The translations under genes were made by a program, and so were the position numbers. Positions 92 to 15,801 of a stretch of 45,075 nucleotides of DNA are shown piece after piece. Under the pieces are notes generated by a model. It saw only the letters and a program-made list of their open reading frames with translations. It did not search any database and was not told where the DNA came from. The stretch's first letter is position 1. Every line of letters begins with the position of its first letter. The DNA lies in contig JAGLSI010000002.1 of the NCBI GenBank assembly GCA_023135835.1, positions 1-45,075 on the forward strand, written 5' to 3'. Source of the DNA: Minisyncoccota bacterium (lineage in GTDB: Bacteria > Patescibacteriota > Minisyncoccia > Phycocordibacterales > UBA12079).

Positions 92-1039
92 TTAAATTTT
101 GGTCATATACAAATCAGGCTCACCATTTCTATAATCTGACCAAATAATTTTATCCTTATCTATGGTCGGCTGAGACTGTGTTGTAAAATGATAAGTAATC
201 CTTGTTGTTAAGGCTGATTTAATATTATATAGAAATATATCAGACTGTGTGCTAGAAAAATTAACATAAGCAATATTATCACCGTATACAACCGGAGTTC
301 CTTCATAATCAATTGATGTACTGACTTCGTGTTCTGTTTCTGTAAGTAGATCGTAGTAATAAATATCAGCATCTGTTCCATTCCCTCGATTTCTAAAATC
401 ATGCCAAACTATTTTATTTTTATAAATTTTAGGAGCTGTTTGATTTTCTAAAGCTGATGTAATTTGAACCTCTATCTTTTTAGCCAAATCATACATGTAA
501 ACATCAATATTATGATTACCTGCTCGACTGTCTGCCCACACTATTTTATTATTATAAATATCAACACTACTTTGACCACCAAGATCATTAGTAATTTGAG
601 TTTTTTCTTCTGTTTTTATATTATAAACAACAACATCTCCTTTATTTTCAGGAACAGAATTATCTATCCATGCAATTCTATTTCCATATATTACAGGACT
701 ATATTGAGAAATAGAATCGTTCGTAAGATTAACTATAACTTCCTTTCGTATGTCATAGAGGTATATATCTCCATTATGATCCCAAACAACATAGTTTTTA
801 TTTATACTAGGTTTCCCTACATTCCCCATATCCGAAATCTTTTTACTTGATCCTGTATAAAAATCATATAAATAATTTTCATGAAATCCGGTACTAAAAT
901 CAGAATAAGCTACATACCTACCATCAACAGACGCCTTCCATTGATGTGAAGGTTCAGTAATAAGCGGCTCAACTGTAAACGCAAATACAGGAAGAACAAC
1001 AAAAATAAATAAGGTGGACGCTAATAAATATTTTTTCAT
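92..1039 (-). CDS. Secreted or membrane-anchored beta-propeller repeat protein
   Basis: Track ORF. The first ATG is at 1039 (the track start at 1045 is TTG). There is an N-terminal hydrophobic segment LLASTLFIFVVLPVFAF. Six repeats of about 45 aa follow the pattern N[KR]I[VA]W.D......DIY.YD. Confidence 0.6.
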   Translation of the reverse strand: MKKYLLASTLFIFVVLPVFAFTVEPLITEPSHQWKASVDGRYVAYSDFSTGFHENYLYDFYTGSSKKISDMGNVGKPSINKNYVVWDHNGDIYLYDIRKEVIVNLTNDSISQYSPVIYGNRIAWIDNSVPENKGDVVVYNIKTEEKTQITNDLGGQSSVDIYNNKIVWADSRAGNHNIDVYMYDLAKKIEVQITSALENQTAPKIYKNKIVWHDFRNRGNGTDADIYYYDLLTETEHEVSTSIDYEGTPVVYGDNIAYVNFSSTQSDIFLYNIKSALTTRITYHFTTQSQPTIDKDKIIWSDYRNGEPDLYMTKI

Positions 1040-1137
1040 ATACAATTTAGATATTAAATTTATTAAATTTACTTCGACTTTCTTTATAGTCTCATGTCTA
1101 TATTAAATTATCAACAGATAAATTCTCTCAGAAATTT

Positions 1138-3564
1138 TTATCTTACTTCCCAACCCTTTAATTCAATCTCTGCTGTGATTTTATCCATTACTTTATTTAT
1201 CTCTTCGTCAGTTAATGTTTTTTCTTGAGACTGAAAAACTAAATTAAAAGCATAAGAAGTTTTATTTTCCTCCTCAGGACTATAAGTATCAAACAATTTT
1301 GTCTGCACCAACAAATCCCCTGCATTTTCTTTTATTATTTTTAATAAATCATCTTCATCAAATTCATTTGGTACAAAAACAGCAATATCTCTTAACATAA
1401 AAGGATAAGCTGAAATACTCTTAAATTTAGAAACTTCAACAACTCCTTCAACATTAATATCGTTATGAACATTAATACCTAAATTAGGCTTATTCATAAA
1501 AACATCTCCATAAGATTTTGGTTCAGGCAATTTTTCAATCATCTCGTCTAAATTAACCTCAAAAACCCCACCTTGTCCGTCCTTGGAACTAGGATCACTT
1601 AGTAGCCCGGGTACTAAGTCTAATTCTTTATTTAAAATAGTTATAATATTTTGAATTATCTCGTCTCTCACAGAATCAGATTGTTTATCTTTTTTAACAA
1701 CCCTAGCCCCAATTGCTAAAACATTATATTCCCCATCAATACTAGGAAAAACTTTTCCTATTTCAAAAATTTTAATTTCATCCAACCCTAATACTGGTGC
1801 ATTTTTTTCATTTAAATCTAAAGATTTTTCAAGTCCATCTTTTAAATTAATTCTCAAAAATCCTAAATTAGAAGCTAGAGGTTTTTGCACTTCTACAACC
1901 CCTTTATCTCCAAAGGTATATGTAGAAACTTCAGAAAAACCTTCATCTACTAAAATATCTTTAATTTTATTAATATAATAAAAAGTTTTATTTATCTTAG
2001 GTTCAAAAACTCTTGAAACAAATTTTGATTCAATATTTCTATAACCATAAATTCTTCCAATCTCTTCAACTAAATCTTCTTTAATTCTTAAATCTAATCT
2101 CTCGTGAGGAATCTCAATAACAAATCTTTCGTGATTGTTAGAGATTCTTCTATATCCTATAATATTCTTAAATTGAACGGCTCCTTTTAATTCCTCAATT
2201 TTAACTTTCCCTGGTCCTCCGTTTTTTCTAGAAGAATGAATTATTTTCCCGCCTCCTAAATATACACCGACATGATCAACCCCTTCTTCCACCTTGCTTC
2301 CTTTTAAAAAATCTAGGGTTTCATAATAAATCTTTCCGTCTTTAGTATTTGAAAATACAAGATCTCCAGCCTGCAAATCATTTTCCGAAATTTCTTCTCC
2401 CCAAAAATACTGATCAACAGAAATCCTTGGAATAGCTATTCCTGCCTGAGCGAAAAGATAAGCAGTGAAAGATGAACAGTCAAAAGATTCTGGAGAATCA
2501 TAAGAAACACTTGCTCCGTATTTATATGGCTTATTTTCAAGAGACATCGCTAGTTCTAAAACTTTTTCAATCGGATTAATTATTTCAAACTTAAAATCAA
2601 GTTTATTTAAAATATTTTCTATATCATCATCTAATAAATCTACTCCTAATAACCTATTTACTTCTTGAGTAGAGATACCTACTTTATATAAATTAGCTTT
2701 TCTAGGATAAACATCTAGGATATCTTCTGATGTTTTTCCTCCTGTTAAATCAACAACTAATTCTGACAATCTATTCATAGCTTCTTCAACTTTTTCTGGT
2801 GAAATCCCATTTTCAAAACGCACAGAAGCATCTGTCCTTAAACCTAATCTTTTTGAAGTTTCTCTAATATTACCCTGATTAAAATTACAAACAGATAAAA
2901 TAATATTTTGAGTATTCTCATCAATTCCTGAAGCTAAGCCTCCTTTTACCCCAGCAATATCCAAAGCTTTTTCACTATCACTAATCACTAATATATTTTC
3001 ATCTAATTCATACTCCCCGCCATCTAGAGTGTTTATTTTTTCTCCATTTTTAGCGTTTCTAATACTAATTTCTTTTAGTCCATCTCCTGCAACTTTATCA
3101 AAATCAAAAGCGTGTACAGGTTGACCTGTTTCCCACATTACATAATTTGTAATATCAACTACATTATTTATAGATTTCTGCCCAATAGACTCAAGTTTCT
3201 CCCTTAACCAATCTGGTGATTGCCCAATTTTTACATTTTGAACTAATCTTTTTGTTGCCCTAAAAACTAAATTAGTATCTTTAACACTTAAAGAAATATG
3301 ATCTGAAGATTTTAAATTTTTTTCAAAAATCTCTTTTTTATCTTCTTCCCTTAACTTCAAAGAAGTTAAAACTGAAATCTCTCTAGCTATCCCTTGATAA
3401 CAAAAACAATCGTGGGAACGATTAGGTAAAACATCTATATCAATTAAATTATCTTCTACCCCTTCTACTTCAAAAGAATGAAATGTCAAAATCTCCACCA
3501 AATCTTTAATCTCTGGCAGAGGTTCCTCAAAATATTCTTTTAACCATTTGTATGAAAATTTCAT
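1138..3564 (-). CDS. pheT: Phenylalanine--tRNA ligase beta subunit with embedded NlpC/P60 domain
   Basis: 808 aa. It has the B1 N-terminus MKFSYKWLKEY, a B3/4 region, a B5 segment (ISTQEVNRLLGVDL...ERLDLRIKEDLVEEIGRIYGY) and a C-terminal FDX-ACB-like end (ISAYPFMLRDIAVFV, KTSYAFNLVFQS). No OB-fold B2 segment follows B1. Confidence 0.95.
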   Translation of the reverse strand: MKFSYKWLKEYFEEPLPEIKDLVEILTFHSFEVEGVEDNLIDIDVLPNRSHDCFCYQGIAREISVLTSLKLREEDKKEIFEKNLKSSDHISLSVKDTNLVFRATKRLVQNVKIGQSPDWLREKLESIGQKSINNVVDITNYVMWETGQPVHAFDFDKVAGDGLKEISIRNAKNGEKINTLDGGEYELDENILVISDSEKALDIAGVKGGLASGIDENTQNIILSVCNFNQGNIRETSKRLGLRTDASVRFENGISPEKVEEAMNRLSELVVDLTGGKTSEDILDVYPRKANLYKVGISTQEVNRLLGVDLLDDDIENILNKLDFKFEIINPIEKVLELAMSLENKPYKYGASVSYDSPESFDCSSFTAYLFAQAGIAIPRISVDQYFWGEEISENDLQAGDLVFSNTKDGKIYYETLDFLKGSKVEEGVDHVGVYLGGGKIIHSSRKNGGPGKVKIEELKGAVQFKNIIGYRRISNNHERFVIEIPHERLDLRIKEDLVEEIGRIYGYRNIESKFVSRVFEPKINKTFYYINKIKDILVDEGFSEVSTYTFGDKGVVEVQKPLASNLGFLRINLKDGLEKSLDLNEKNAPVLGLDEIKIFEIGKVFPSIDGEYNVLAIGARVVKKDKQSDSVRDEIIQNIITILNKELDLVPGLLSDPSSKDGQGGVFEVNLDEMIEKLPEPKSYGDVFMNKPNLGINVHNDINVEGVVEVSKFKSISAYPFMLRDIAVFVPNEFDEDDLLKIIKENAGDLLVQTKLFDTYSPEEENKTSYAFNLVFQSQEKTLTDEEINKVMDKITAEIELKGWEVR

Positions 3565-3635: not shown

Positions 3636-4142
3636 TTAGTTTCCATTTAGGGGCCTTTTCTTTTTGTCTAGTTTCTTCCTTAAACTGTTTAAATAAGTAA
3701 TCTCATAGGGCAATCGTCTAACTAAATAAGAAAGCTTTTTTGATGGAGATATCACTTTAATCTCTTTATTTTCATCTTTAGCAAATTCTAATAAACAAGC
3801 AAAATCTCCATCACTAGATACTAAAACGAAATCACTAAAATCTTCTCTAAAAATGTCAGTTACTGCTTTTAAAACTAATTCTGCATCACAATTGCCTTTT
3901 ATTTTTCCTTTAGATTTTAAAGTTTTCTTAAAAATAATTTTATACCCGATTTCTTCTAAAGAACTATATAACTTTTTTTGTTCTTCAACAAACCCAATAA
4001 AAAAATAAATTTCTTCTGTTTTAAAATTTTCAAAAAGCCAGATGTAAAAGTTTTTATAATCAAACTTCCAATCAAGAGACTTTGACCCTCTATACAAATT
4101 TGCCGCGTCTATATAAACCCTGGTTTTATTATTAAATTTCAT
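3636..4142 (-). CDS. NYN (LabA-like, PIN-related) domain protein, paralog 1
   Basis: Motifs RVYIDAANL, GNCDAELVLKAV and VLVSSDGDFACLLEF. The ATG at 4142 lies 1 nt after the mazG-like stop. The track start at 4178 overlaps the upstream gene. Confidence 0.75.
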   Translation of the reverse strand: MKFNNKTRVYIDAANLYRGSKSLDWKFDYKNFYIWLFENFKTEEIYFFIGFVEEQKKLYSSLEEIGYKIIFKKTLKSKGKIKGNCDAELVLKAVTDIFREDFSDFVLVSSDGDFACLLEFAKDENKEIKVISPSKKLSYLVRRLPYEITYLNSLRKKLDKKKRPLNGN

Positions 4143-4143
4143 A

Positions 4144-4449
4144 TTATTTTTTATATCTATCCTTATCCCTATCGGCAACCTTGTCTATGCTTTTTTGAAC
4201 CGCTTCTCCCAAATCTATACCGTGAGAATTAGCAAAACAAATTAAAGTATAAATTATATCTCCCATCTCATCTTCAATATCTTTCTTTTTTTCTTCTAAT
4301 TTTTTCTTTTTAGGGCCGTAAATATGATTAACTTCTCTAGCAAACTCACCACATTCTTCAAACAACCTAGCTGTAATAGCCAATGGTTCCCAATAACCCC
4401 AACCTTTTTCTTCAAACCATTTATTAACTTGTTCTTGATATTTTTTCAT
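4144..4449 (-). CDS. Small MazG-like nucleoside triphosphate pyrophosphohydrolase
   Basis: 101 aa with EECGEFAREV...EDEMGDIIYTLICFANSHGIDL, the typical all-alpha NTP-PPase EEXXE/D layout. Confidence 0.8.
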   Translation of the reverse strand: MKKYQEQVNKWFEEKGWGYWEPLAITARLFEECGEFAREVNHIYGPKKKKLEEKKKDIEDEMGDIIYTLICFANSHGIDLGEAVQKSIDKVADRDKDRYKK

Positions 4450-4453
4450 TTAA

Positions 4454-5230
4454 TTAAAACTGATTAACTAATCTCAAATCTCCTGAATAAAGTCGTCTAA
4501 TATCATCTATCCCATACTTGAGCATTATAACCCTATCAATACCAATACCAAAAGCAAAACCTTGATATTTTCTTGAATCAATTCCGCCAGCATTTAAGAC
4601 ATTGGGATGTACCATTCCTGCTCCTAAAATTTCAATCCAACCACTATGTGAACAAGACGGGCAGCCCTTCCCCTCACACTTAAAGCAAACCATGTCCACT
4701 TCCAATCCTGGCTCTACAAAAGGAAAATACCCAGGACGAAGTCTAATAACAACATCTTTTCCAAAAAACTCTTGAAGGATATTCTCCAAAGTTCCTTTTA
4801 AATTTGCTAAGGTAATATTCTCCCCTACAACCAACCCTTCACATTGATGAAATTGAGCGTCATGAGTAGCGTCCGTGGCTTCATTTCTAAAAACTTTCCC
4901 AGGGACAATAATGGCAAAAGGAGCTTGGTTTTCTTCCATATAACGAATTTGTACATCAGAAGTTTGAGTTCTTAAAAGTTTTTTAAGATTTTCGGGTTTC
5001 AGCCAAAAAGTATCCTGCATATCTCTAGAAGGATGATTTTTTGGAAAATTTAAAGCATCAAAATTATAATATTCATCTTCTATTTCTGGTCCACTCGCAA
5101 TCTCAAACCCCATTTTAGAAAAAATATCAGAAAATCTTTTAATAGTTTGTGTTAATAAATGTAAATGCCCTCCTTGCCCAACTGTAAGTTTAGAGCTTTC
5201 TTTCTTATCTAATTTTTTTGAGGTAGTCAT
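4454..5230 (-). CDS. pheS: Phenylalanine--tRNA ligase alpha subunit (short N-terminus)
   Basis: [30 protein letters not shown] and [16 protein letters not shown]...[10 protein letters not shown]...DLRL. The ATG is at 5230 (the track start at 5236 is GTG). Confidence 0.95.
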
Positions 5231-5237
5231 AATCACA

Positions 5238-5339: not shown

Positions 5340-6857
5340 ATGAAAACAGTCAAAGATATTACTTCTTATATAGACAACCCTTCAAAAAAAGACGAAAAAT
5401 TGATTGAAGAGGCTTTTAATTTTGCTGTAAACGCCCACTCTGGTCAAAAAAGATATTCTGGCGAACCTTATTTTAATCATGTTTATGAAACAGGAAAAAT
5501 TCTAGCTGAATTAGGAATGGGAGCCACTGTAATTTCAGCTGGACTTCTACATGATGTAGTAGAAGATGGGATTACCACAGAAAAAGAATTAAAAGAAAAA
5601 TTTGGTGAAGATATCTCTCTTTTAGTAGAAGGAGTTACTAAATTAGGAAAAATTAGATTTCAAGGATTAAAAAGACATACTGAAAGTCTTAGAAAATTAT
5701 TCATGGCATCTTCTCAAGACATCAGAGTTCTAATAATAAAATTTGCTGACAGAGTCCATAATATGAAAACTCTTGATTATGTTCCTAAAGAAAAACAACT
5801 AAGAATTGCAACAGAGACATTAGAAATATTTGCTCCTCTAGCTTACCGCCTAGGAATTGGAGTTTTAAATCGCCAACTTGAAGACTTATCTTTTCCTTAT
5901 GTTTACCCTAATGAATATAAAAAAGTTGAAGAAATAGTAAGAGAAGAAACAAAAGATAGTATTATATCTCTTAAAAAAATAGATCGTTCAATCAAAAAAC
6001 GATTAGCCAGAGAAGGTATAACAAATATTCATAGTAATTCCCGTATAAAAGGAATGTATAGTTTATACAGAAAACTAGAAAGAAAGCACTGGGATATTGA
6101 TAAAATTTATGATATTGCAGCCTTAAGGATTATAGTTCCTACTAAAAATGATTGTTATAAGGTACTAGGAATAATACATGATTTCAGAAGACCTATGCCT
6201 GGAAGAATTAAAGATTATATTGCTTTCCCTAAACCTAACGGCTACCAAAGCTTACACACCACAGTATTTACCCGATTTGGTAATGTTGTTGAAATACAAT
6301 TACGAACAGCAGAAATGCACAAAGAAGCTGAGTATGGAATTGCCTCTCACCTATCTTATAAAGATAAGGTTGTTTATAAAGAAACTGATGATCCTAAGAT
6401 GTGGATTAAAAGGTTATTATCTAATATAAATAAATTAGATAATAAAAATAAAAAACCAGAGAATCCTAACACTGCTCCAGAGTGGATAAAAAATTTAGCT
6501 GACCACCCAAACGAAACAGAATCACAAGAATTTATTTCAGAATTAAAAAAAGATTTTTTTGAACATAGAGTTTTTGTGTTTACACCCAAAGGAGATGTTA
6601 TTGATTTACCAACAGATTCTAGTCCAATAGATTTTGCTTTTGCTATTCATTCAGATGTTGGAAATCATATGCACGGTGCAAAGGTTCATGGAAAATTAGT
6701 TTCATTAGATACTAAACTAAAAAATGGTGATATCGTAGATATTATGACTAAGAAAACTATTACACCTACAAAAAAATGGTTAGACATTGCAAAAACAGCA
6801 GAGGCTCGCCGACACATTAAATCTACCCTTAAAAAACTTCAAGAAGCACCTAAATAA
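5340..6857 (+). CDS. rsh: RelA/SpoT homolog, bifunctional (p)ppGpp synthetase/hydrolase, HD-SYNTH-TGS only
   Basis: The HD domain is HSGQKRYSGEPYFNHV...LLHDVVED. The synthetase domain is RIKGMYSLYRKL...AALRIIV...GYQSLHTTV...VEIQLRTAEMH. The TGS domain is VFVFTPKGDVIDLP...KNGDIVDI. The ORF ends about 40 aa after TGS. Confidence 0.9.
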   Translation: MKTVKDITSYIDNPSKKDEKLIEEAFNFAVNAHSGQKRYSGEPYFNHVYETGKILAELGMGATVISAGLLHDVVEDGITTEKELKEKFGEDISLLVEGVTKLGKIRFQGLKRHTESLRKLFMASSQDIRVLIIKFADRVHNMKTLDYVPKEKQLRIATETLEIFAPLAYRLGIGVLNRQLEDLSFPYVYPNEYKKVEEIVREETKDSIISLKKIDRSIKKRLAREGITNIHSNSRIKGMYSLYRKLERKHWDIDKIYDIAALRIIVPTKNDCYKVLGIIHDFRRPMPGRIKDYIAFPKPNGYQSLHTTVFTRFGNVVEIQLRTAEMHKEAEYGIASHLSYKDKVVYKETDDPKMWIKRLLSNINKLDNKNKKPENPNTAPEWIKNLADHPNETESQEFISELKKDFFEHRVFVFTPKGDVIDLPTDSSPIDFAFAIHSDVGNHMHGAKVHGKLVSLDTKLKNGDIVDIMTKKTITPTKKWLDIAKTAEARRHIKSTLKKLQEAPK

Positions 6858-6916: not shown

Positions 6917-7561
6917 CTAAATATCTAAAAGAGGTTTTTCCTCTTTTTTAGGTCTTTCTGCTTTCTCTAAATTCACCTTATTATAATTTTTATATACTTC
7001 TTCTTTATCTTTAGCTACCAAAGCTAATACCTTTTCTACTAATATTTTAGGATCTTCATCAAAGACTATTTTGTCATTAGGGCGATGAGCTTTTTCTAAA
7101 ATCATTTCAATAATTTCATCAGTTGCCCAATCTCCTTTTAAAATACCCATTGGCTTTTTATCTTCAAAAGCAATAGTAAATTCATGAATAGTCCCCACTC
7201 TTCCTGCTGTAATAAAAACAGCATCAACAGATTTTGTTAAAATTAAATCTCTTCCTGGATAACCAAAGCCTGTATAAATAATCAAATCCATATACTCTGT
7301 TGGTAATTTATAAAAACCCAAATGCTCTGCTTCAGTATCTGCAGGAGAAAATCCAATAGAAAAGCCTCCTTCACTTTTAGCTCCTTTGGCTCCCCATAAC
7401 GGCAACCCTGTAGTTGCTCCTGTTACAACAATACCTCCCTGTCGTGCGATTTCTCTTCCTAATTCTTCTGTTTTAACAACAGCATCAGGAGTAAGATGAG
7501 TCGTCTCAGCGGCTCCTGAAATACATAATTTTGGTTTTAAAATAATTCCTTTTTCATCCAT
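6917..7561 (-). CDS. LOG / TIGR00725-like Rossmann-fold nucleotide-binding protein
   Basis: ELGREIARQGGIVVTGATTG...GFSIGFSP...AVFITAGRVGTIHEF resembles the LOG/SLOG (lysine-decarboxylase-like) family. Confidence 0.6.
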   Translation of the reverse strand: MDEKGIILKPKLCISGAAETTHLTPDAVVKTEELGREIARQGGIVVTGATTGLPLWGAKGAKSEGGFSIGFSPADTEAEHLGFYKLPTEYMDLIIYTGFGYPGRDLILTKSVDAVFITAGRVGTIHEFTIAFEDKKPMGILKGDWATDEIIEMILEKAHRPNDKIVFDEDPKILVEKVLALVAKDKEEVYKNYNKVNLEKAERPKKEEKPLLDI

Positions 7562-7568
7562 AAGTTAA

Positions 7569-7596
7569 GTATTAAGTATTATGTATTAAGTATTAG
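7569..7596. repeat. Tandem heptamer repeat (gtattaa x4, slightly degenerate)
   Basis: gtattaa gtattat gtattaa gtattag begins 8 nt upstream of the LOG-like ATG. A second 7-mer series (tactttc-like) lies at 7634-7660. Confidence 0.8.
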
Positions 7597-7671
7597 ATAG
7601 AAAAGTTTGCTTTACAAATTTTTCTAGGAATAATACTTTTACTTTCTACTTTCTACGTTTTAATTTTTTAA

Positions 7672-7836
7672 TTATGATAATAACTTGGCTTTTTTATAGA
7701 GATCTCTTTGCAATTCATTTGACCCTGAAGTAGCATTTTTTATTATTTTCTTTTGACTTTTAGAAGAAATAGAAGACCAGCGAAAAGCTTTGTCTTTCGT
7801 TTTTTCTTTTACAAAAAAGTTTTTAATTGACTTCAT
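7672..7836 (-). CDS. Small basic hypothetical protein (54 aa), not in ORF track
   Basis: Hand translation: MKSIKNFFVKEKTKDKAFRWSSISSKSQKKIIKNATSGSNELQRDLYKKAKLLS. The ATG at 7836 lies 1 nt after the stop of the zeta-like gene, which suggests translational coupling. Confidence 0.35.
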   Translation of the reverse strand: MKSIKNFFVKEKTKDKAFRWSSISSKSQKKIIKNATSGSNELQRDLYKKAKLLS

Positions 7837-7837
7837 A

Positions 7838-8572
7838 TTACTTTAATTCTCTATTTAACTTATCTTCATTATAATCATCTTTTACATAGAAATCAACATT
7901 TTGAATATTTGGATAATACTTTTCAGTTTGATTTAAGAAATTTTTTATAACTAAATTAAGAATTACTTTTTCTTTATATTTTTGTTTTATCAAATTAACG
8001 TTTTCTCTAGATTTAAAAAATTGCTGAATAAAATTATTTTTTAATATATTTCTACCTTCTATTTTTTCCCTCTTTTTCGTATAATCCCAAGCAAGCAAAG
8101 GATCTTGATATAAATAAAATATAACAGGTTCTATATCTTTACTTAAACATCTCATTATATTTTTCTCTATTGTCTTAAATTCCCCGCCCATTGTAACATC
8201 TAGAATAAATAAAACTTTTTTCTTAAAACAATAATCTAATAAAATCTCAATCCCTTTAGTAGCTGCTTCTTGTAAAAATTGAGCATTCCCATGAATATTT
8301 TTCTCAATATTAGTTGGTGTATAAAATTCTTTTAAAAACTCAGTTCTTATTGTATCAGCGTCAATGTGTAAAGGCTTAATTGTATCTTTATCTTCAATAA
8401 TTCTTAATTTTTTTACAAATTCAGTTTTACCAGCACCAGGAGATCCTGCCATAAAAAAATTAGTTTTTGTTTCAAAAACATTCGTTTCTGATTGTGTAAA
8501 AAAATCTAAAAGATCTTTTTTATGACTTTTTATATAAGAGAGTGATTCTTTTTGTATTTTATTTTCATCCAT
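7838..8572 (-). CDS. Zeta-toxin-like P-loop kinase
   Basis: Walker A is MAGSPGAGKTEF, followed by HIDADTIRTEF and FILDVTMGG. This spacing resembles zeta toxin/AAA_33 kinases. Confidence 0.55.
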   Translation of the reverse strand: MDENKIQKESLSYIKSHKKDLLDFFTQSETNVFETKTNFFMAGSPGAGKTEFVKKLRIIEDKDTIKPLHIDADTIRTEFLKEFYTPTNIEKNIHGNAQFLQEAATKGIEILLDYCFKKKVLFILDVTMGGEFKTIEKNIMRCLSKDIEPVIFYLYQDPLLAWDYTKKREKIEGRNILKNNFIQQFFKSRENVNLIKQKYKEKVILNLVIKNFLNQTEKYYPNIQNVDFYVKDDYNEDKLNRELK

Positions 8573-9247: not shown

Positions 9248-10063
9248 ATGTTAACTATAATCAAACCAAAAAAAACTTTCAATTGGAACGATTTCAGAGA
9301 AATCTGGCAATATAAAGAATTGTTATATTTCCTAACTTGGAGAGATATTAAAGTTCGTTATAAACAAACGGCTATTGGAATTTTATGGGCACTCTTCCAA
9401 CCTTTTATGACTATGGTGGTTTTCACTATATTTTTTGGAGGATTCGCAAAAATGCCATCTGACGGAATTCCCTACCCAATCTTTGTTTACTCAGGACTTT
9501 TATTTTGGCAATTTTTTTCCGCTTCTTTAACCGATGTTAGTAATTGTTTAATATCTAATAAAGGAATAATCACAAAAGTATATTTTCCCCGTATAATTTT
9601 GCCGATTTCTTCTACTGTTACAAAATTTGTTGATTTTTTTATTGCGTCTACTATTTTAGTTGGAATGATGATTTATTACCAATATACACCCAACTTAATT
9701 GGTCTTTTAATTATTCCACTACTTCTATTAATTACTTTCATGGCTTCTGTCGGCGGTGGTTTATTTCTAGCTTCTATTAATGTTAAGTACCGCGATGTTC
9801 GTTATGTATTACCTTTCTTTATTTCAATGATGATGTTTATAACTCCGGTAATTTATCCAGCCAGTATTGTGGGAAAATATTCATGGCTTTTAGCTTTAAA
9901 TCCTATGACTGGAGTAATCAAAGCCTCTCGTGCCGCTCTTTTGGGGAACGCTCCAATAAATTGGGAGCTTCTTGCGATCTCAGGAATAGCTTGCTTAATA
10001 CTATTATTAGTCGGCTTTTACTTCTTCAAAAAAACCGAACGTTATTTTGCAGATATAGTATAG
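9248..10063 (+). CDS. wzm: ABC-2 type polysaccharide/teichoic-acid export permease (Wzm/TagG-like)
   Basis: 271 aa with 6 predicted TM segments. The N-terminus WQYKELLYFLTWRDIKVRYKQTAIGILWA is the characteristic ABC-2 permease signature. Confidence 0.85.
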   Translation: MLTIIKPKKTFNWNDFREIWQYKELLYFLTWRDIKVRYKQTAIGILWALFQPFMTMVVFTIFFGGFAKMPSDGIPYPIFVYSGLLFWQFFSASLTDVSNCLISNKGIITKVYFPRIILPISSTVTKFVDFFIASTILVGMMIYYQYTPNLIGLLIIPLLLLITFMASVGGGLFLASINVKYRDVRYVLPFFISMMMFITPVIYPASIVGKYSWLLALNPMTGVIKASRAALLGNAPINWELLAISGIACLILLLVGFYFFKKTERYFADIV

Positions 10064-10099
10064 AAGTAAATATACAAATAATACGAATGCAACAAATGA
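10059..10099. repeat. Gene-junction repeat, empty-site copy (tatagaagtaaatatacaaataatacgaatgcaacaaatga)
   Basis: It is about 85% identical to 21776-21792 plus 21817-21840. It contains a dead-end ATG (MQQMKWIYKQKE stop) that mirrors the MQQ start of the GT2 gene at 21828. Confidence 0.7.
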
Positions 10100-10116
10100 A
10101 ATGGATATACAAACAA

Positions 10117-10184
10117 AAAGAGTGAAATTGGTCAAACCAACCTCACTCTTTCTTGGAGAACTCAATTTCTATGAGTTCTCCAAG
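10117..10184. terminator. Two tandem hairpins between convergent wzm and the radical SAM gene
   Basis: Hairpin 1 is aaagagtga...tcactcttt (10117-10151). Hairpin 2 is a perfect 13-bp stem cttggagaactca / tgagttctccaag (10152-10184). Confidence 0.65.
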
Positions 10185-10206
10185 ACAGTAAAAATAACAT
10201 AAAAAA

Positions 10207-11532
10207 CTAACCTTTTTTAGAAACCAGATTATATTTATCTGCAAATTCCATAAATTCAATAATTTTCTCACGAGAAACATCTCCTGCTATAACCTTTAAA
10301 CTATGATGATTTGCTTCTTCAATTGCATGATCTCTCCCTTCTCTGTCTTTTAAAAAACTGACTCTGGAAAAATCAATACTATTTTTATAAAATCCTGTTC
10401 CAATGTAAGGAGTATAAATCGCAGCGCTAACATAAGTTGGTTTGATTTCATCAATAAACCTCATAGTAGCATCAGCATCTATGGAAGTTTCACCAGGGAC
10501 TCCAACCATTACATAAGCCATCCAGGGTACAGAAAAGCTATTAAGCAATTTTGCAGCATTTCTTGCTTGATCAAGATTTGTTCTTTTGTTCATCAAGTCT
10601 AGCACCTTCTGGCTACCACTCTCAATCCCCAGTTTAATCATACAGCAACCAGACTCTACCATTTGTTTAAGAATTACTTCATTTAATCTATCTACCCTAG
10701 TCAAACAACCCCATTCATATCCTTTATCACGAATACCTTTGGTAAATTCCAAAACTCTTTTTTTGTTTAGAGTAAAAGTATCATCAGTCAGATAAAATTT
10801 CTGAGTACCATATCTTCTGTTAGTATCATCCATTTCAGCGATAACATCACTAATATTTCTGAACCTAACTCTCTTCCCCCAGAGTTTTTCTGAACAACAA
10901 AAATTACAAGATCCTGGACAACCCCTAGAAGTCATCATAAAGCCAAGGTCAGAAGGTTTATAGTTCTCAATTCCAATGAGACTTTCTCTCGCCATCCACG
11001 GCAATAAATCTAAGTTTTGGATTCTATTCGCCCTTATAATTCTAGTCTTGGGAGTACCATCAAAAACTTCCATCTGTTCTTCAGCTTCTCCAACAATAGC
11101 ATAATCAACAGGGCTACCTTCCTTTATTACATCACTTGGTCGAATTGTTACATGGGGACCTCCAGCAACAATTCTTTTAACACCCATTTCTTTTGCGATT
11201 TGCGCCACTCGCAAACCACTTCTTAATTTAGTAGAGATAAAAGAAACACCAACCACATCTGGTTTTGACTCTTCAATTTGAGAAGAAATACTTTCCCAGA
11301 TAGAATGACTCCCATTATTTAAACTATTAAGATACTCATCATAATGACCAATCTTAGTCATAAAAGGATAAGGATTCCCCTTAGGGTTATAATCCGAATC
11401 AAGAACTTCAACTTCATGGCCCATTTTTTTCAACTTTCCAGCTAAAAATAATAGTCCAAGCGGAATTCCGGCCTTTGAAAAACCCATAAATTTTTGAAAG
11501 GGAGGATCTATAAGTAAAATCTTCTTTTTCAT
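10207..11532 (-). CDS. B12-binding-domain radical SAM protein (class B-like)
   Basis: The N-terminal Rossmann-like part has KKILLIDPP...GHEVEVLD. The CxxxCxxC cluster is MTSRGCPGSCNFCCS. An AGGAG Shine-Dalgarno sequence lies 7 nt upstream. Confidence 0.8.
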   Translation of the reverse strand: MKKKILLIDPPFQKFMGFSKAGIPLGLLFLAGKLKKMGHEVEVLDSDYNPKGNPYPFMTKIGHYDEYLNSLNNGSHSIWESISSQIEESKPDVVGVSFISTKLRSGLRVAQIAKEMGVKRIVAGGPHVTIRPSDVIKEGSPVDYAIVGEAEEQMEVFDGTPKTRIIRANRIQNLDLLPWMARESLIGIENYKPSDLGFMMTSRGCPGSCNFCCSEKLWGKRVRFRNISDVIAEMDDTNRRYGTQKFYLTDDTFTLNKKRVLEFTKGIRDKGYEWGCLTRVDRLNEVILKQMVESGCCMIKLGIESGSQKVLDLMNKRTNLDQARNAAKLLNSFSVPWMAYVMVGVPGETSIDADATMRFIDEIKPTYVSAAIYTPYIGTGFYKNSIDFSRVSFLKDREGRDHAIEEANHHSLKVIAGDVSREKIIEFMEFADKYNLVSKKG

Positions 11533-11801
11533 TTTTTTCTCCTTTTTTTGGATTTATTTTTTTTAATTTTTAACTGTCAAAAAATAAAAACAATCTTTTT
11601 AATCATTTATATTTTAACTTTTCTACAATACTTTTATCATAAAACTAGACAAAAAACAACGAGTTAAATTAACATTTCAAGTGCAATATATCCGTAGTAT
11701 AGATAGTCTGTGACCAACTAACCATACTCTAGGATTTCAGGCGCGAATAGTTTATTTTCATCACAATATAGTGTAAACTATAATTTTATAGACTATACAT
11801 T

Positions 11802-13076
11802 ATGAAACCAATAATAAGCGCTAAGAACATCTCAAAAAAATACAACATCACTCATGAACAAGGAGGTTATATTGCTATGCGTGATGTATTAACCAACATA
11901 GCCAAAAAACCTTTTGCTTTTTTAAAAAAGAAAGTTGGTAAAATTACTGGGAGAACTACTAATGAAGTTTTTTGGGCATTAAAAGATATTAATTTTGAGG
12001 TGCAAAAAGGCGAAGCAATTGGAATAATCGGAGCCAACGGAGCGGGAAAATCTACCCTACTTAAAATTCTTACGGGAATTACTCCACCAACAACAGGCGA
12101 AATTAAAATGCACGGGAAAGTGGCTTCCCTTCTTGAAGTTGGAACAGGTTTTCACTCCGAGTTAACTGGACGAGAAAATATTTTTCTCAATGGAGCAATA
12201 CTAGGAATGACAAAAAAAGAAATAGCTGATAAATTTGATGCTATCGTAGAATTCTCAGGAGTTAGAAAATTTATTGATACTCCTGTTAAAAGATATTCTT
12301 CAGGGATGTTAGTTCGTCTTGGTTTTTCAGTTGCCGCTCATATGGAACCTGACATACTTTTAGTAGATGAAGTTCTGGCTGTTGGAGATGCAGAATTCCA
12401 AAAAAAATGCCTCGGCAAAATGGATGAGGTGACTACAAAAGGTGGACGAACAATTCTATTTGTTAGTCATAATCTAATTGCTGTCCAAAAACTCTGCAAA
12501 AGATGTATTCTTCTTGAAGAAGGTAAAATAAAAATGATCGGAGAGACAAAAGAAATCATAAGTAAATATTTAGAAAAAAATACCAACACTAAAGAAATTA
12601 ATAATCTGGGGGCGGATAAAGACAAAGAAATTGCTTTCACAAAAGTTTGGGTTACAAACGATAATGAAGAAATTATAGATAATATAAATGTAAATGAAAA
12701 ATTCAAAATTTGGTTAAAATTTGATGTAAACAAAGATATAAACACAGCAGAAATTAGTATCTTTTTAAAAAACTTAGCTGGGGTAAATATAACTTTTACC
12801 AACTTATCAGATTCTTTTAATAAAAAGTTTCTGACTCTAAAAAAAGGACATTACACAACATCTACCTTAATAAATGAAAACTTTTTAATCCCGGATGATT
12901 ATTTAGTAGGAATATCAGCCCACATAAGAGGTGTCAGAAACATTGATTTACACGACAATATTATGCGCTTTACAATAATAGAAAATGGTTCAACAATGGC
13001 TCCATACAGAAGTATGGCAAACCAATTAAGTTGTGTATTCAGTAATGCTAAGTGGGAGATATGCCCTACTAAATAA
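11802..13076 (+). CDS. wzt: Polysaccharide ABC exporter ATPase (Wzt/TagH-like) with about 160-aa C-terminal extension
   Basis: Walker A is GANGAGKST, the signature is YSSGMLVRLGFS and Walker B is ILLVDEVLAVGD. Residues from about 265 to 424 are an extra beta-rich domain. Confidence 0.85.
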   Translation: MKPIISAKNISKKYNITHEQGGYIAMRDVLTNIAKKPFAFLKKKVGKITGRTTNEVFWALKDINFEVQKGEAIGIIGANGAGKSTLLKILTGITPPTTGEIKMHGKVASLLEVGTGFHSELTGRENIFLNGAILGMTKKEIADKFDAIVEFSGVRKFIDTPVKRYSSGMLVRLGFSVAAHMEPDILLVDEVLAVGDAEFQKKCLGKMDEVTTKGGRTILFVSHNLIAVQKLCKRCILLEEGKIKMIGETKEIISKYLEKNTNTKEINNLGADKDKEIAFTKVWVTNDNEEIIDNINVNEKFKIWLKFDVNKDINTAEISIFLKNLAGVNITFTNLSDSFNKKFLTLKKGHYTTSTLINENFLIPDDYLVGISAHIRGVRNIDLHDNIMRFTIIENGSTMAPYRSMANQLSCVFSNAKWEICPTK

Positions 13077-13108
13077 AATTATATTAAAAAAATTATTATT
13101 TCAATTTT

Positions 13109-13882
13109 ATGAAAAAAGATATTACTGAATTAAAAAAAATTATTGTTAAATCTTCACATGAATCTAAAGAAGGTCACATTCCAAGCACTCTTTCAATCTT
13201 AGACATTCTTTGGGTTCTTTATAATAAAATAATTAAAATAAATCCGAATAAACCTAAAGATATTTACCGAGATATCTTTATATTAAGTAAGGGGCATGCT
13301 TCTTTAGGACTTTATTCTATTTTGGCTAATAAAAACTTTTTTTCTTTTTCAGAATTCAAAAACTTTGGAAAATTTGGAAGTATCTTAGGAGGACACCCTG
13401 ACCGAAATAAAATTCCTGGAATAGAAGCATCTACAGGATCATTGGGTCATGGACTACCTCTTGCTATAGGGATAGCCTTGGGTTTAAAAATTAAAAAATT
13501 AAAAAATAAAGTTTTTGTAATTATAGGTGACGGTGAATGTAACGAAGGAACAATTTGGGAATCATCATTACTCGCCTCACACCATAATCTATCTAATTTA
13601 ACCTGTATAATAGACCACAACCATTCAACAGATAGAGCTTTAAAAATAGACAATTTATCTACTAAATTCAAATCATTCGGTTGGGAAACTATAACTATTA
13701 ACGGACATAATCACGAAGAAATTTATAATGCTCTTTCTCAAAAACACAACAAAAAGCCAATGATGATTATAGCAGAAACAATTAAAGGAAATGGTATTAA
13801 AATTATGGAAAATAATCCTGAATGGCATCACAAATCACCAAACTCAGATGAATTAAAATTAATTTTGGAAAAAATTACTTAA
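13109..13882 (+). CDS. Transketolase, N-terminal (TPP-binding) subunit
   Basis: SKGHASLGLY and the GDGECNEGTIWES TPP motif in a 257-aa split-type subunit. Confidence 0.85.
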   Translation: MKKDITELKKIIVKSSHESKEGHIPSTLSILDILWVLYNKIIKINPNKPKDIYRDIFILSKGHASLGLYSILANKNFFSFSEFKNFGKFGSILGGHPDRNKIPGIEASTGSLGHGLPLAIGIALGLKIKKLKNKVFVIIGDGECNEGTIWESSLLASHHNLSNLTCIIDHNHSTDRALKIDNLSTKFKSFGWETITINGHNHEEIYNALSQKHNKKPMMIIAETIKGNGIKIMENNPEWHHKSPNSDELKLILEKIT

Positions 13883-13886
13883 AAAA

Positions 13887-15789: not shown

Positions 15790-15801
15790 AATAATAAAAT
15801 T

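What the first reader, a model, noticed from the sequence alone, without database searches (positions are those of the whole stretch)
2128..2580. Complete NlpC/P60 (papain-like cysteine hydrolase) domain inserted inside the B5 region of PheRS beta subunit
About 150 extra residues sit between ...KLDFKFEI and FVIEIPHERLDLRIKEDLVEEIGRIYGY, which is the canonical continuation of PheT. They read PYKYGASVSYDSPESFDCSSFTAYLFAQAGIAIPRISVDQYFWGEEISENDLQAGDLVFS...VDHVGVYLGGGKIIHSS.

This matches every hallmark of NlpC/P60. The hallmarks are Y.YG, the catalytic Cys in DCS (codon 2476-2478), IPR.S..Q, GDLVF, the catalytic His in HVG.Y.G (codon 2272-2274), and a third polar residue in IIHS.

NlpC/P60 domains are normally secreted cell-wall amidases or acyltransferases. 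I am not aware of one embedded in an aminoacyl-tRNA synthetase. The same PheT lacks the usual OB-fold B2 domain, so the overall length (808 aa) looks normal and the insertion would be missed by length checks.

Possible roles are an extra thiol esterase for editing or deacylation, a moonlighting peptidoglycan or lipid function, or an inert scaffold.
Basis: partly seen in the sequence, partly recalled or inferred. Interest (0 to 1): 0.78.

Follow-up and report, generated by a model that had tools for sequence, protein, structure and literature searches.

The report
Cell-wall peptidase domain inside PheRS beta
The housekeeping phenylalanyl-tRNA synthetase beta subunit of this tiny-genome (Patescibacteria) bacterium carries a complete, apparently active NlpC/P60 cysteine peptidase spliced into its B5 domain; this is an old, widespread trait that I could not find described in the literature, and it looks like a self-contained murein-peptide hydrolase rather than a tRNA-editing device.

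Summary
ORF 1138-3564 (-) is an 808-aa bacterial PheT. It scores above the NCBI equivalog cut-off, lacks the B2 OB-fold, and has about 152 residues (aa 329-480, window 2125-2580) replacing a 4-residue hairpin turn of B5.

The insert hits Pfam NLPC_P60 (E 1e-19) and folds confidently (pLDDT 91-98; TM 0.87 to a C. difficile autolysin domain). It is not an assembly artefact. At least 119 90%-clusters and about 100 50%-clusters from Patescibacteria share the architecture. Cys363 and His431 are kept in 118 of 119.

New findings:
- The gamma-D-Glu S1 signature of NlpC/P60 DL-endopeptidases is conserved in the insert.
- A cytosolic Peptidase_C39_2 gene lies next to pheT. It is immediately downstream in 11 of 19 insert-bearing loci against 1 of 48 insert-less ones. 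In this genome it sits 1.2 kb downstream, just outside the window.
- The B5+NlpC/P60 module also exists as a stand-alone roughly 200-aa gene. That gene is found next to or fused with C39_2, or beside a single-chain PheS-ACB gene.
- Most insert-bearing PheTs keep an intact editing site.

Best reading: an autonomous cytoplasmic murein-peptide amidase riding on PheT, working with C39_2. An editing role is unlikely. The biochemistry is untested, and no paper describing the architecture was found.

The parts
1138..3564 (-). pheT, 808-aa PheRS beta subunit carrying the insert
   Evidence: ORF listing. TIGR00472 scores 440 bits, above the cut-off of 403. Pfam finds B3_4, B5, tRNA_synthFbeta and FDX-ACB. 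AF2 model has mean pLDDT 90.3. Foldseek top hits are bacterial PheRS beta chains.
2740..3261 (-). B3_4 editing domain (aa 102-275). B2 (OB-fold) is missing between B1 and B3.
   Evidence: Pfam B3_4 at 8e-63 and no PF01588 hit. Query aa 36 aligns to TIGR00472 profile position 156. There is a gap of about 110 aa relative to P0030/P0031, which keep B2.
2893..2895 (-). Ser224, at the position of editing-site Glu334 (E. coli numbering)
   Evidence: Alignment to 7n8y_B (Salmonella Typhimurium PheRS, numbered like E. coli). Ser in 62 and Glu in 57 of the 119 close relatives. Glu in 18 of 20 insert-bearing GTDB representatives and in all 57 insert-less PheTs.
2581..2688 (-). B5 first half (aa 293-328: beta1, alpha1, alpha2, beta2)
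   Evidence: First stretch of the Pfam B5 hit. AF2 secondary structure E294-297, H299-306, H312-321, E325-329.
2125..2580 (-). The roughly 152-aa insert (aa 329-480) in the beta2-beta3 hairpin of B5
   Evidence: pLDDT blocks are 91-98, including both junctions.
2152..2532 (-). NlpC/P60 (MEROPS C40) catalytic domain, aa 345-471
   Evidence: Pfam PF00877 at E 1.1e-19. PDB phmmer hit 7cfl_A at 2.5e-16. Foldseek hits 7cfl_A at TMt 0.87 and 9ubf at 0.82-0.85, and also lists 3h41 (YkfC).
2524..2526 (-). Tyr347, equivalent to YkfC Tyr226 (transition-state and gamma-D-Glu contact)
   Evidence: Present in 119 of 119. Role taken from PMC2954226.
2473..2481 (-). Asp362-Cys363-Ser364: catalytic nucleophile flanked by the two S1 residues that bind gamma-D-Glu
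   Evidence: Asp in 118, Cys in 118 and Ser in 113 of 119. Cys lies at the N-terminus of helix 363-373 in the model.
2419..2427 (-). Arg380-Ile381-Ser382, equivalent to YkfC Arg255-Asp256-Ser257
   Evidence: Arg in 118 of 119. A small residue (S/A/T) at position 382 in 116 of 119. Position 381 is I/M/V rather than Asp, so this is not the YkfC free-L-Ala type.
2281..2349 (-). Family-specific beta-hairpin (aa 406-428) between GDLVF and DHVG
   Evidence: 127 residues align to 103 Pfam profile positions. Strands E413-415 and E424-429. Conserved in PheT-embedded and stand-alone copies, deleted in P0118.
2272..2274 (-). Catalytic His431
   Evidence: Present in 118 of 119.
2236..2238 (-). Third triad residue, His443
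   Evidence: His in 105 of 119. Tyr or Phe in 13, mostly the 64-71%-identical relatives of the window protein.
2041..2124 (-). B5 second half (aa 481-508), with the acidic R-x-D...D-L-x-E-E motif
   Evidence: Pfam B5 profile positions 34-67. R489 and D491 in 119 of 119, D497 in 116, E500 and E501 in 118.
1150..1413 (-). FDX-ACB (B8) anticodon-binding domain
   Evidence: Pfam at 4e-24.
4454..5236 (-). pheS, 260 aa, catalytic core only (no N-terminal coiled coil)
   Evidence: Pfam tRNA-synt_2d covers aa 21-260. TIGR00468 scores 304 bits, above the cut-off of 237, and the match starts at profile position 67.
3636..4449 (-). MazG-like (101 aa) and NYN-domain (180 aa) genes lying between pheS and pheT
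   Evidence: The same order is seen in the 79%-identical relative.
92..1045 (-). 317-aa gene with a hydrophobic N-terminus. In this genome it separates pheT from the Peptidase_C39_2 gene, which lies just beyond the window start.
   Evidence: Locus L090 from the same genome reads pheT, 315-aa gene, C39_2 (178 aa), gyrB.

Best explanation
Shown: the 152-residue insert is a complete NlpC/P60 (C40) papain-like cysteine amidase with an intact active site. It is joined to the beta2-beta3 hairpin of the B5 domain of the genome's ordinary PheRS beta subunit through short linkers that the model predicts with high confidence. It is an ancient, vertically maintained trait of a large Patescibacteria (Paceibacteria/Parcubacteria) assemblage.

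Inferred: it is a self-contained catalytic module for which PheT is only the carrier. Its S1 pocket keeps the residues that recognise gamma-D-glutamate. It most likely cleaves gamma-D-Glu-diamino-acid bonds in murein-derived peptides in the cytoplasm, for cell-wall peptide recycling or salvage. It would work together with the small cytosolic Peptidase_C39_2 cysteine peptidase encoded next to pheT.

It probably does not take part in aminoacylation or proofreading. B5 keeps its own structural motif and acts as a clasp that holds the two ends of the peptidase together.
For: Architecture and authenticity. The identical protein is on 5 contigs.

Conservation:
- All 120 best hits carry PF00877 together with the PheT domains, at 46-80% identity.
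- In the representative library, 102 full-length and about 19 partial PheT clusters (50% identity) have the insert at about aa 330-480.
- The insert is as conserved as B3_4 and B8 (0.64-0.66 against 0.68 and 0.66) and more conserved than the CLM (0.49).
- Cys363 and His431 are kept in 118 of 119.

Fold: pLDDT is 91-98 across the insert and its junctions. TMt is 0.87 to the C. difficile autolysin Acd24020 catalytic domain. YkfC and cyanobacterial gamma-D-Glu endopeptidases are also among the hits.

Substrate signature, as defined in PMC2954226: Tyr226, Asp237, Ser239, Arg255 and a small residue at 257 are matched by Y347 (119/119), D362 (118), S364 (113), R380 (118) and S/A/T382 (116).

Partner gene:
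- C39_2 (PF13529, above Pfam's cut-off) is immediately downstream of pheT in 11 of 19 insert-bearing GTDB loci against 1 of 48 insert-less ones (Fisher 6e-7).
- It is also downstream in the window's own genome and its nearest relatives.
- Several C39_2 clusters have the same longest-contig length as a PheT-NlpC cluster, which suggests shared contigs.
- The C39_2 proteins start directly with the catalytic domain and show no hydrophobic N-terminal leader on inspection.

Autonomy:
- Stand-alone proteins of 199-233 aa consist of B5 half, NlpC/P60 and B5 half.
- They are followed by C39_2 or fused to a C39_2-like domain (P0233; P0204, inferred from its tail sequence).
- They nest among the PheT copies in a rough tree.
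- Two of them sit beside a single-chain PheS+FDX-ACB gene where no PheT remains in that locus.

Precedent for cytoplasmic NlpC/P60 enzymes in murein-peptide recycling: YkfC of Bacillus (PMC2954226) and of Chlamydia trachomatis (PMC9928106).
Against: - No biochemistry exists. The substrate is inferred from five conserved positions.
- The YkfC Trp228 position is variable here (Y/S/F/L/H/R), and a family-specific hairpin alters the groove.
- The third triad residue is Tyr or Phe in 13 of 119 relatives.
- C39_2 is not adjacent in 8 of 19 insert-bearing loci, and the neighbourhood statistic ignores phylogenetic non-independence.
- Nothing explains why PheT in particular is the host.
- In two contexts the stand-alone module is still next to a PheS-type gene, so a link to PheRS cannot be excluded.
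- No model coordinates were available. Accessibility of the active site and its distance to the editing and synthetic sites could not be measured.
- No murein-recycling genes were searched for genome-wide.
Confidence: 0.5

Rival explanations
1. The NlpC/P60 domain is an extra thiol esterase for proofreading. It would deacylate mis-charged tRNAPhe (Tyr, m-Tyr or another near-cognate) through an acyl-Cys intermediate, supplementing or replacing the B3/4 site.
For: The catalytic dyad is strictly conserved. In the window's own clade the Tyr-discriminating Glu334 of the B3/4 site is Ser. The NlpC/P60 superfamily includes acyl-transfer enzymes such as LRAT (weak LRAT hit for P0127). In two contexts the stand-alone module still lies beside a PheS-type gene.
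Against: - 18 of 20 insert-bearing species representatives keep Glu334, and most also keep His265, Thr354 and Ala/Ser356. The insert therefore does not track loss of editing.
- The S1 residues conserved are those that bind gamma-D-Glu, not an aromatic side chain.
- Stand-alone modules have no tRNA-binding or B3/4 parts, and their tails lack the acidic B5 motif on inspection.
- The linked and fused partner is a peptidase.
Confidence: 0.08
2. The domain and C39_2 form a cytoplasmic cysteine-protease pair acting on a substrate that is not peptidoglycan. Candidates are maturation of a leader-bearing peptide or cleavage of a protein or another gamma-glutamyl compound. Alternatively, the domain is a sensor that ties a cell-wall-derived ligand to PheRS activity.
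For: The nearest solved folds to the C39_2 partner are double-glycine leader peptidases (ComA, PCAT1), staphopain and toxin domains. The Trp228-equivalent position is not conserved, and a family-specific hairpin reshapes the groove. The module stays near PheRS genes after fission.
Against: The conserved S1 signature points to gamma-D-Glu. The closest sequence and fold relatives are cell-wall DL-endopeptidases. No candidate precursor peptide gene is conserved beside pheT in the loci examined.
Confidence: 0.22
3. The insert is a catalytically idle structural add-on, for example one that compensates for the lost B2 domain or for the lost PheS coiled coil.
For: Nearly all insert-bearing loci have a short PheS and a B2-less PheT. 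One relative (P0024) has Cys to Ser together with His to Arg, and 13 have Tyr or Phe at the third triad position.
Against: - Cys and His are kept in 118 of 119, and the substrate-site residues are kept as well.
- Relatives exist with B2 plus the insert (P0030, P0031) and with B2 plus a long PheS (L022).
- Close insert-less relatives also have a short PheS and no B2.
- The module persists as a separate gene.
Confidence: 0.07
4. It is an assembly or gene-calling artefact that joins a peptidase gene to pheT.
For: GC content is slightly higher in the insert (0.35-0.37 against about 0.27-0.31).
Against: - The reading frame is a single open one.
- The identical protein occurs on 5 contigs from different samples.
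- The same insertion point is seen in more than 100 divergent clusters from many projects.
- Both B5 halves are intact around the insert.
- There are no flanking repeats beyond short AT-rich chance matches.
Confidence: 0.01

Closest known systems
NlpC/P60 (MEROPS C40) gamma-D-glutamyl-diamino-acid endopeptidases, e.g. C. difficile Acd24020 (7cfl), B. cereus YkfC (3h41), E. coli MepS/Spr, M. tuberculosis RipA/RipB
   Same: The profile hit is above the cut-off. It has the papain-like fold and a Cys-His-His triad with the same order and spacing (Cys to Arg 17 residues, His to His 12). The conserved Tyr, Asp, Ser and small residue of the gamma-D-Glu S1 site are present.
   Different: - It has no signal peptide and no SH3b, LysM or other wall-binding domain.
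- It is embedded inside a cytoplasmic aminoacyl-tRNA synthetase.
- It has an extra beta-hairpin of about 20 aa between GDLVF and DHVG.
- The motif reads YGAS rather than WGG, and the Trp228-equivalent position is variable.
Cytoplasmic murein-peptide recycling NlpC/P60 enzymes (YkfC of Bacillus; YkfC of Chlamydia trachomatis, PMC9928106)
   Same: These are intracellular NlpC/P60 enzymes acting on free murein peptides. The chlamydial one is retained in a reduced-genome, host-dependent bacterium. This is the working model proposed here.
   Different: YkfC-type enzymes need Asp256 and an SH3b tyrosine to hold the free L-Ala amine. Here position 381 is Ile, Met or Val, and there is no SH3b domain. 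If the substrate is a murein peptide, its N-terminal side is recognised differently.
Bacterial PheRS beta subunit (TIGR00472; T. thermophilus, E. coli and S. haemolyticus structures)
   Same: B1, B3/4, B5, B6/7 and B8 are all present. The gene is syntenic with pheS and scores above the equivalog cut-off. The B5 acidic motif is invariant.
   Different: B2 is deleted. A 152-aa enzyme domain sits in the B5 hairpin. In this clade the editing-site Glu334 is replaced by Ser. The partner PheS lacks the N-terminal coiled coil.
Peptidase_C39_2 (PF13529; YvpB-like; also listed as an endolysin catalytic domain, e.g. PMC8223927)
   Same: The neighbouring gene's product matches above the cut-off. It has the invariant Gln, Cys and His, a nearly invariant Asp-Pro, and a C39 papain fold.
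   Different: It is a small (170-210 aa) leaderless protein, named only from Patescibacteria sources. It is not attached to an ABC transporter or a wall-binding domain. It has no characterised member.

Membership tests
NlpC/P60 (Pfam PF00877, MEROPS C40) | Profile HMM match above the curated threshold | tested here: met
   70.8 bits against a cut-off of 23, E 1.1e-19, profile positions 2-103 of 105.
NlpC/P60 (Pfam PF00877, MEROPS C40) | Catalytic Cys at a helix N-terminus, His on a beta-strand and a third polar residue, in that order | tested here: met
   Cys363 starts helix 363-373. His431 starts strand 431-437. His443 lies in strand 440-445. Cys and His are kept in 118 of 119, the third His in 105 of 119.
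NlpC/P60 (Pfam PF00877, MEROPS C40) | Papain-like alpha+beta fold superposable on solved members | tested here: met
   Foldseek: 7cfl_A at TMt 0.87 with 34% identity, 9ubf at 0.82-0.85, and 3h41 at rmsd 2.9 over 146 columns.
NlpC/P60 (Pfam PF00877, MEROPS C40) | Hydrolase activity on a gamma-D-Glu-diamino-acid (or related) amide bond | not testable with these tools
   This needs an enzyme assay.
gamma-D-Glu-specific NlpC/P60 subgroup (Xu et al. 2010, PMC2954226) | Conserved Tyr226, Asp237, Ser239 and a small residue at 257 forming the S1 site | tested here: met
   Y347 in 119/119, D362 in 118, S364 in 113, S/A/T382 in 116. The mapping uses motif spacing and the 3h41 match range.
gamma-D-Glu-specific NlpC/P60 subgroup (Xu et al. 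2010, PMC2954226) | Conserved Trp228 (S1/S2 hydrophobic wall) | tested here: not met
   Position 349 is Y 38, S 29, F 19, L 17, H 6, R 5.
YkfC-type (free N-terminal L-Ala) endopeptidases | Asp256 plus an SH3b domain tyrosine | tested here: not met
   Position 381 is I, M or V in 112 of 119. There is no SH3b hit.
Bacterial PheRS beta subunit (TIGR00472 equivalog) | Whole-protein score above the NCBI cut-off | tested here: met
   440.3 bits against 402.65.
Bacterial PheRS beta subunit (TIGR00472 equivalog) | Domain set B1-B2-B3/4-B5-B6/7-B8 | tested here: not met
   All are present except B2. There is no PF01588 hit, and query aa 36 aligns to profile position 156. This is a reduced variant shared with many Patescibacteria.
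Bacterial PheRS beta subunit (TIGR00472 equivalog) | Genomic partnership with pheS | tested here: met
   pheS lies at 4454-5236 on the same strand, 0.9 kb upstream.
PheRS B3/4 editing site | His265, Glu334, Thr354, Ala356 (E. coli numbering; residue roles recalled from the PheRS editing literature) | tested here: inconclusive
   H151, T244 and A246 are present, but Glu334 is Ser224 in the window protein. Editing competence cannot be judged without an assay.
Known aa-tRNA trans-editing or deacylase families (YbaK/ProX, AlaX, DTD, B3/4-like such as CtdA) | Homology of the insert to any of them | tested here: not met
   The Pfam, NCBIfam and PDB hits that fall within the insert are NlpC/P60-type wall hydrolases. 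Foldseek also lists CtdA (9f7e) among the hits to the whole protein; I attribute that match to the B3/4 region, not the insert.

The most novel reading that the evidence does not exclude
The NlpC/P60 module, with its C39_2 partner, performs chemistry that is truly coupled to PheRS. One version is capturing the aminoacyl group of (mis)charged tRNAPhe on Cys363 for a new kind of proofreading or for tRNA-dependent transfer onto a cell-wall or peptide acceptor. Another is gating PheRS activity in response to murein fragments, so that wall turnover is wired directly to translation in these symbionts. The evidence does not exclude this. The module stays next to PheS-type genes even after it has split from PheT, the host gene is always pheT, and the geometry relative to the tRNA path could not be examined.
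Probability: 0.1. Interest if true: 0.9.

Novelty: new variant of a known kind. Interest (0 to 1): 0.6.

Why it matters
Aminoacyl-tRNA synthetases are known for acquiring editing, tRNA-binding and signalling domains. A wall-hydrolase-type cysteine peptidase spliced into the core of one, and kept with an intact active site across a large Patescibacteria assemblage, is outside that usual repertoire. No paper in the searched literature describes it.

Three reasons it matters:
- Annotation. NCBI records name many of these essential PheT proteins 'C40 family peptidase'. This can make pheT look absent and a wall hydrolase look present in metabolic reconstructions of candidate-phyla genomes.
- Evolution. 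The series from the embedded module, to a stand-alone or C39_2-fused module, to a module beside a single-chain PheS-ACB gene is a clean natural experiment in domain insertion and gene fission. It shows which pieces of PheT remain in these loci.
- Physiology. It points to an uncharacterised two-peptidase cytoplasmic system (NlpC/P60 plus C39_2) in organisms thought to live on scavenged building blocks. The proposed activity can be tested directly with murein peptides and cysteine-protease inhibitors.

Tried and rejected
- Assembly chimera or recent mobile insertion. Rejected on several grounds. The frame is one open frame and the protein recurs on 5 contigs. Conservation is deep and there are no flanking repeats. 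The mild GC rise in the insert probably reflects composition.
- Insert as a replacement for a decayed editing site. Rejected as a general explanation. Glu334 to Ser is confined to the window's own clade, and 18 of 20 insert-bearing species representatives keep Glu.
- Insert as compensation for loss of B2 or of the PheS coiled coil. Rejected. Both losses also occur in close insert-less relatives. B2 plus insert (P0030, P0031) and B2 plus insert plus long PheS (L022) also exist.
- A PheS-PheT fusion in L011. This is an artefact of a masked run of N.
- Fold neighbours of the C39_2 partner gave only a generic C39 papain fold and no functional pointer. A sequence search of PDB found nothing. The literature on YvpB and Peptidase_C39_2 is uninformative.
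- Model coordinates are not exposed. Active-site accessibility and distances to the editing and synthetic sites could not be measured.
The number of species with the insert is a lower bound, and the taxon labels are submitters' names.
- The first literature query used 'NlpC P60', which cannot match 'NlpC/P60'. It was repeated with 'NlpC' plus PheRS, phenylalanyl-tRNA or tRNA synthetase plus CPR. No relevant paper was found.


Full report
**1. The observation**

The region lies inside one uninterrupted ORF, 1138..3564 on the minus strand, 808 aa.
- KLDFKFEI is aa 321-328.
- The extra segment is aa 329-480, window 2125-2580.
- FVIEIPHER starts at aa 481.
- Cys363 is codon 2476-2478, His431 is 2272-2274 and His443 is 2236-2238.

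Pfam finds the following:
- B3_4 at aa 102-275 (8e-63).
- NLPC_P60 at aa 345-471 (1.1e-19, 70.8 bits against a gathering score of 23).
- B5 in two pieces. The second, aa 475-508, corresponds to profile positions 34-67 of 67.
- The catalytic-like module and FDX-ACB at aa 718-805.
- No tRNA_bind hit.

NCBIfam places the protein above the equivalog cut-off for bacterial PheT (440 against 403 bits). Its N-terminal alignment jumps from residue 36 to profile position 156, so B2 is missing.

Against the solved S. haemolyticus beta chain, query 37-326 aligns to 160-444 and query 479-807 to 449-799. The roughly 152 residues therefore replace a turn of about four residues.

**2. Not an artefact, and not rare**

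- The identical protein is encoded on five separately assembled contigs.
- The 120 best hits in the 5.8-billion-protein collection all combine PF00877 with the PheT domains, down to 46% identity. They come from Pacebacteria, Campbellbacteria, Yonathbacteria and 'Patescibacteria group' MAGs.
- An exhaustive search of the 50%-identity representative library with the insert alone gave 99 hits below 1e-30. Of the 151 sequences classified (the best hits plus the window protein), 102 are full-length PheTs with the domain at about aa 330-480, and about 19 more are PheT fragments.
These included Kaiserbacteria, Zambryskibacteria and a distant UBA7522 lineage at 32% identity.
- No direct or inverted repeats of note flank the insert.

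**3. The domain looks active and rigidly mounted**

In an alignment of 119 relatives:
- Cys363 and His431 are kept in 118. The one exception changes both.
- The third residue, His443, is kept in 105. It is Tyr or Phe in 13.
- Mean column conservation of the insert (0.64; core 0.66) equals that of the editing domain (0.68) and the anticodon-binding domain (0.66). It exceeds that of the catalytic-like module (0.49).

An AlphaFold2 model built on this alignment has mean pLDDT 90.3.
- The 10-residue blocks across the insert and both junctions score 91-98.
- Cys363 lies at the N-terminus of a helix. The two histidines lie on adjacent strands.
- B5 reads beta1-alpha1-alpha2-beta2-[insert]-beta3.

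Foldseek matches the domain to the C. difficile autolysin Acd24020 catalytic domain (TMt 0.87), to Acd33800, to YkfC and to cyanobacterial gamma-D-Glu endopeptidases. A hairpin of about 20 residues (aa 406-428) between GDLVF and DHVG is specific to this family.

**4. What substrate?**

Xu et al. (PMC2954226) defined the S1 site that recognises gamma-D-Glu in NlpC/P60 enzymes. It comprises Tyr226, Asp237, Ser239 and a small residue at 257, with Arg255 in the supporting network. They also showed that Asp256 plus an SH3b tyrosine marks the YkfC type, which needs a free L-Ala.

The spacings match those of YkfC: Cys to Arg is 17 residues and His to His is 12. The equivalents here are:
- Y347 in 119 of 119.
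- D362 in 118.
- S364 in 113.
- R380 in 118.
- S/A/T382 in 116.

Two positions differ. The Trp228 position is variable. The Asp256 position is Ile, Met or Val. The pocket for gamma-D-Glu is therefore preserved, but recognition of the N-terminal side differs from YkfC.

**5. A linked partner that the window just misses**

Small proteins among the representative hits turned out to be complete genes of 199-233 aa. Each consists of the first B5 half, the NlpC/P60 domain and the second B5 half, with a short divergent tail.
- In two unrelated contigs such a gene is immediately followed by a Peptidase_C39_2 gene of 156-188 aa.
- In P0233 the two are fused. P0204 appears to be fused as well, judged from its tail sequence.

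A local HMM of these C39_2 proteins then hit the ORF directly downstream of pheT in 11 of 19 insert-bearing GTDB loci with enough sequence. It hit only 1 of 48 insert-less PheT loci (Fisher 6e-7, not corrected for phylogeny). Pfam confirms PF13529 above its cut-off.

The window itself has no C39_2. The longer contig from the same genome reads pheS, MazG, NYN, pheT, a 315-aa gene, C39_2 (178 aa), gyrB, sortase. The 79%-identical relative has C39_2 directly after pheT.

The C39_2 subfamily has these properties:
- At least 491 90%-clusters of 170-210 aa.
- No N-terminal leader sequence visible on inspection.
- Invariant Gln and Cys and a conserved His. Asp-Pro is nearly invariant.
- A confident C39 papain fold, pLDDT 97. 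Its nearest solved relatives are double-glycine peptidase domains, a putative C39-like peptidase of B. anthracis, staphopain and a pseudomurein endoisopeptidase.

The literature lists Peptidase_C39_2 among endolysin catalytic domains but characterises no member.

**6. The module is separable from PheRS**

In a rough neighbour-joining tree, the stand-alone modules fall at several places inside the PheT-embedded clade and not with secreted NlpC/P60 proteins. This suggests repeated derivation from pheT.

Two stand-alone modules (P0242 and P0225) lie next to a 389-aa gene. That gene combines the PheS class-II core with the FDX-ACB domain, and the module is followed by gyrB as in the pheT-C39_2-gyrB synteny.
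- The 389-aa protein scores just below the cut-offs of both the mitochondrial-type PheRS model and the 'PheS-related ligase SrmL' model.
- In those loci only two pieces of a beta subunit remain: B8, fused to the alpha core, and the B5+NlpC/P60 module.

In the PheT family the acidic motif of the second B5 half is almost invariant: R489 and D491 in 119 of 119, D497 in 116, E500 and E501 in 118. From my recollection of UniProt annotation of E. coli PheT, this motif contributes a Mg2+ site shared with the alpha subunit. In the stand-alone proteins the motif is not retained (inspection). This argues that their B5 remnant is a structural clasp rather than a PheS-docking element.

**7. The editing hypothesis**

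By alignment to the Salmonella Typhimurium structure 7n8y_B, which shares E. coli numbering, His265, Thr354 and Ala356 are present but Glu334 is Ser224 in the window protein. Ser is common among the nearest relatives, 62 of 119.

Among species representatives, however, 18 of 20 insert-bearing PheTs keep Glu. So do all 26 insert-less Patescibacteria-type PheTs and all 31 others. The insert therefore did not arise as a substitute for a lost editing site. Points 4 to 6 add to this, so a proofreading role is unlikely but not excluded.

**8. Other correlates**

PheS here is 260 aa and is the catalytic core only. Nearly all insert-bearing loci have such a short PheS and a B2-less PheT. So do the closest insert-less relatives, whose PheTs are 595-670 aa.

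Some lineages combine the insert with the parts lost here. P0030 and P0031 keep B2 with a short PheS. The distant L022 keeps B2 and has a long PheS. The insert therefore appears older than these reductions and is not explained by them.

**9. Comparison with what is known, and verdict**

The domain is a member of NlpC/P60 by profile, triad, fold and S1 signature. It is not a YkfC-type enzyme. The host is a bona fide, B2-less bacterial PheT.

Cytoplasmic NlpC/P60 enzymes that recycle murein peptides are known in Bacillus and Chlamydia (PMC2954226; PMC9928106). Those are separate proteins with SH3b domains.

Four literature searches that combined NlpC with PheRS, phenylalanyl-tRNA, or tRNA synthetase plus candidate phyla radiation found no description of this architecture. 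Public annotation often labels these PheTs 'C40 family peptidase'.

I classify it as a new variant of known kinds. The architecture and its conservation are shown. The murein-peptide function and the partnership with C39_2 are inferred. The reason pheT is the host remains open.

Noticed in passing
just beyond window position 1 (locus L090:13632-14168); also L084:8477-9013 and L086:8578-9156: A 178-192-aa leaderless Peptidase_C39_2 gene is linked to insert-bearing pheT across the clade. It forms a Patescibacteria subfamily of at least 491 clusters with no characterised member.
   Followed up: yes
L081:846-1505, L083:8001-8600, L092:8001-8669; proteins P0127, P0133, P0134, P0173, P0225, P0242, P0233, P0204: Stand-alone genes of 199-233 aa consist only of B5 half, NlpC/P60 and B5 half. 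P0233 is fused to a C39_2-like domain and P0204 appears to be. P0242 and P0233 carry FSCSS and MPS variants, with Asp237 and Arg255 equivalents changed to Ser.
   Followed up: partly
L092:6794-7963 (-) and L093:2409-3578 (-): A 389-aa single-chain gene combines the PheS core with FDX-ACB, the mitochondrial-PheRS or SrmL-like architecture. It lies in Patescibacteria-like contigs and scores just below the NCBIfam cut-offs for pheS_mito and SrmL. Whether it is the sole PheRS of those genomes is unknown.
   Followed up: partly
window 2893-2895 (-), Ser224: Editing-site Glu334 (E. coli numbering) is replaced by Ser in the window protein and in about half of its nearest relatives. It is not replaced in most other insert-bearing or insert-less PheTs. 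Tyr-tRNAPhe proofreading may be altered in this clade.
   Followed up: partly
window 4454-5236 (-): PheS is 260 aa and lacks the N-terminal coiled-coil tRNA-binding arm. This is common to many, but not all, Patescibacteria loci examined, whether or not they have the insert.
   Followed up: partly
window 3636-4449 (-): MazG-like pyrophosphohydrolase (101 aa) and NYN-domain (180 aa ORF, called as 168 aa) genes sit between pheS and pheT. The order is conserved in the 79%-identical relative but not in P0019 or P0030.
   Followed up: no
window 92-1045 (-): A 317-aa protein with a hydrophobic N-terminus and no significant Pfam hit is inserted between pheT and C39_2 in this genome only. It is absent at that spot in the closest relative (L084).
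   Followed up: no
protein records P0002, P0004, P0007, P0026, P0028, P0081, P0088: NCBI names several of these full-length PheT proteins 'C40 family peptidase', and others 'phenylalanine--tRNA ligase beta subunit-related protein'. This is a systematic mis-annotation of an essential gene.
   Followed up: no
relatives P0006, P0009-P0012, P0014, P0017, P0020, P0022-P0024, P0029, P0046, P0083: The third triad residue, His443, is Tyr or Phe in 13 relatives and Asp in one. P0024 additionally has Cys to Ser and His to Arg, and is probably inactivated.
   Followed up: no
window 6917-8572 (-) and 5340-6857 (+): A Zeta-toxin-domain gene lies next to a SLOG (LDcluster4) gene. A RelA/SpoT homologue (HD_4, RelA_SpoT and TGS domains) is divergent from pheS.
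   Followed up: no
window 9248-25593: A glycan-synthesis cluster. It holds a Wzm/Wzt-type ABC-2 exporter, a B12-binding radical SAM enzyme and a split transketolase. It also has two NAD-dependent epimerases/dehydratases, GT10, GT11 and GT2 glycosyltransferases, and several methyltransferases.
   Followed up: no
L011:4665-7440: An apparent 925-aa PheS-PheT fusion ORF is caused by a masked run of N in the record. It is not a real fusion.
   Followed up: yes
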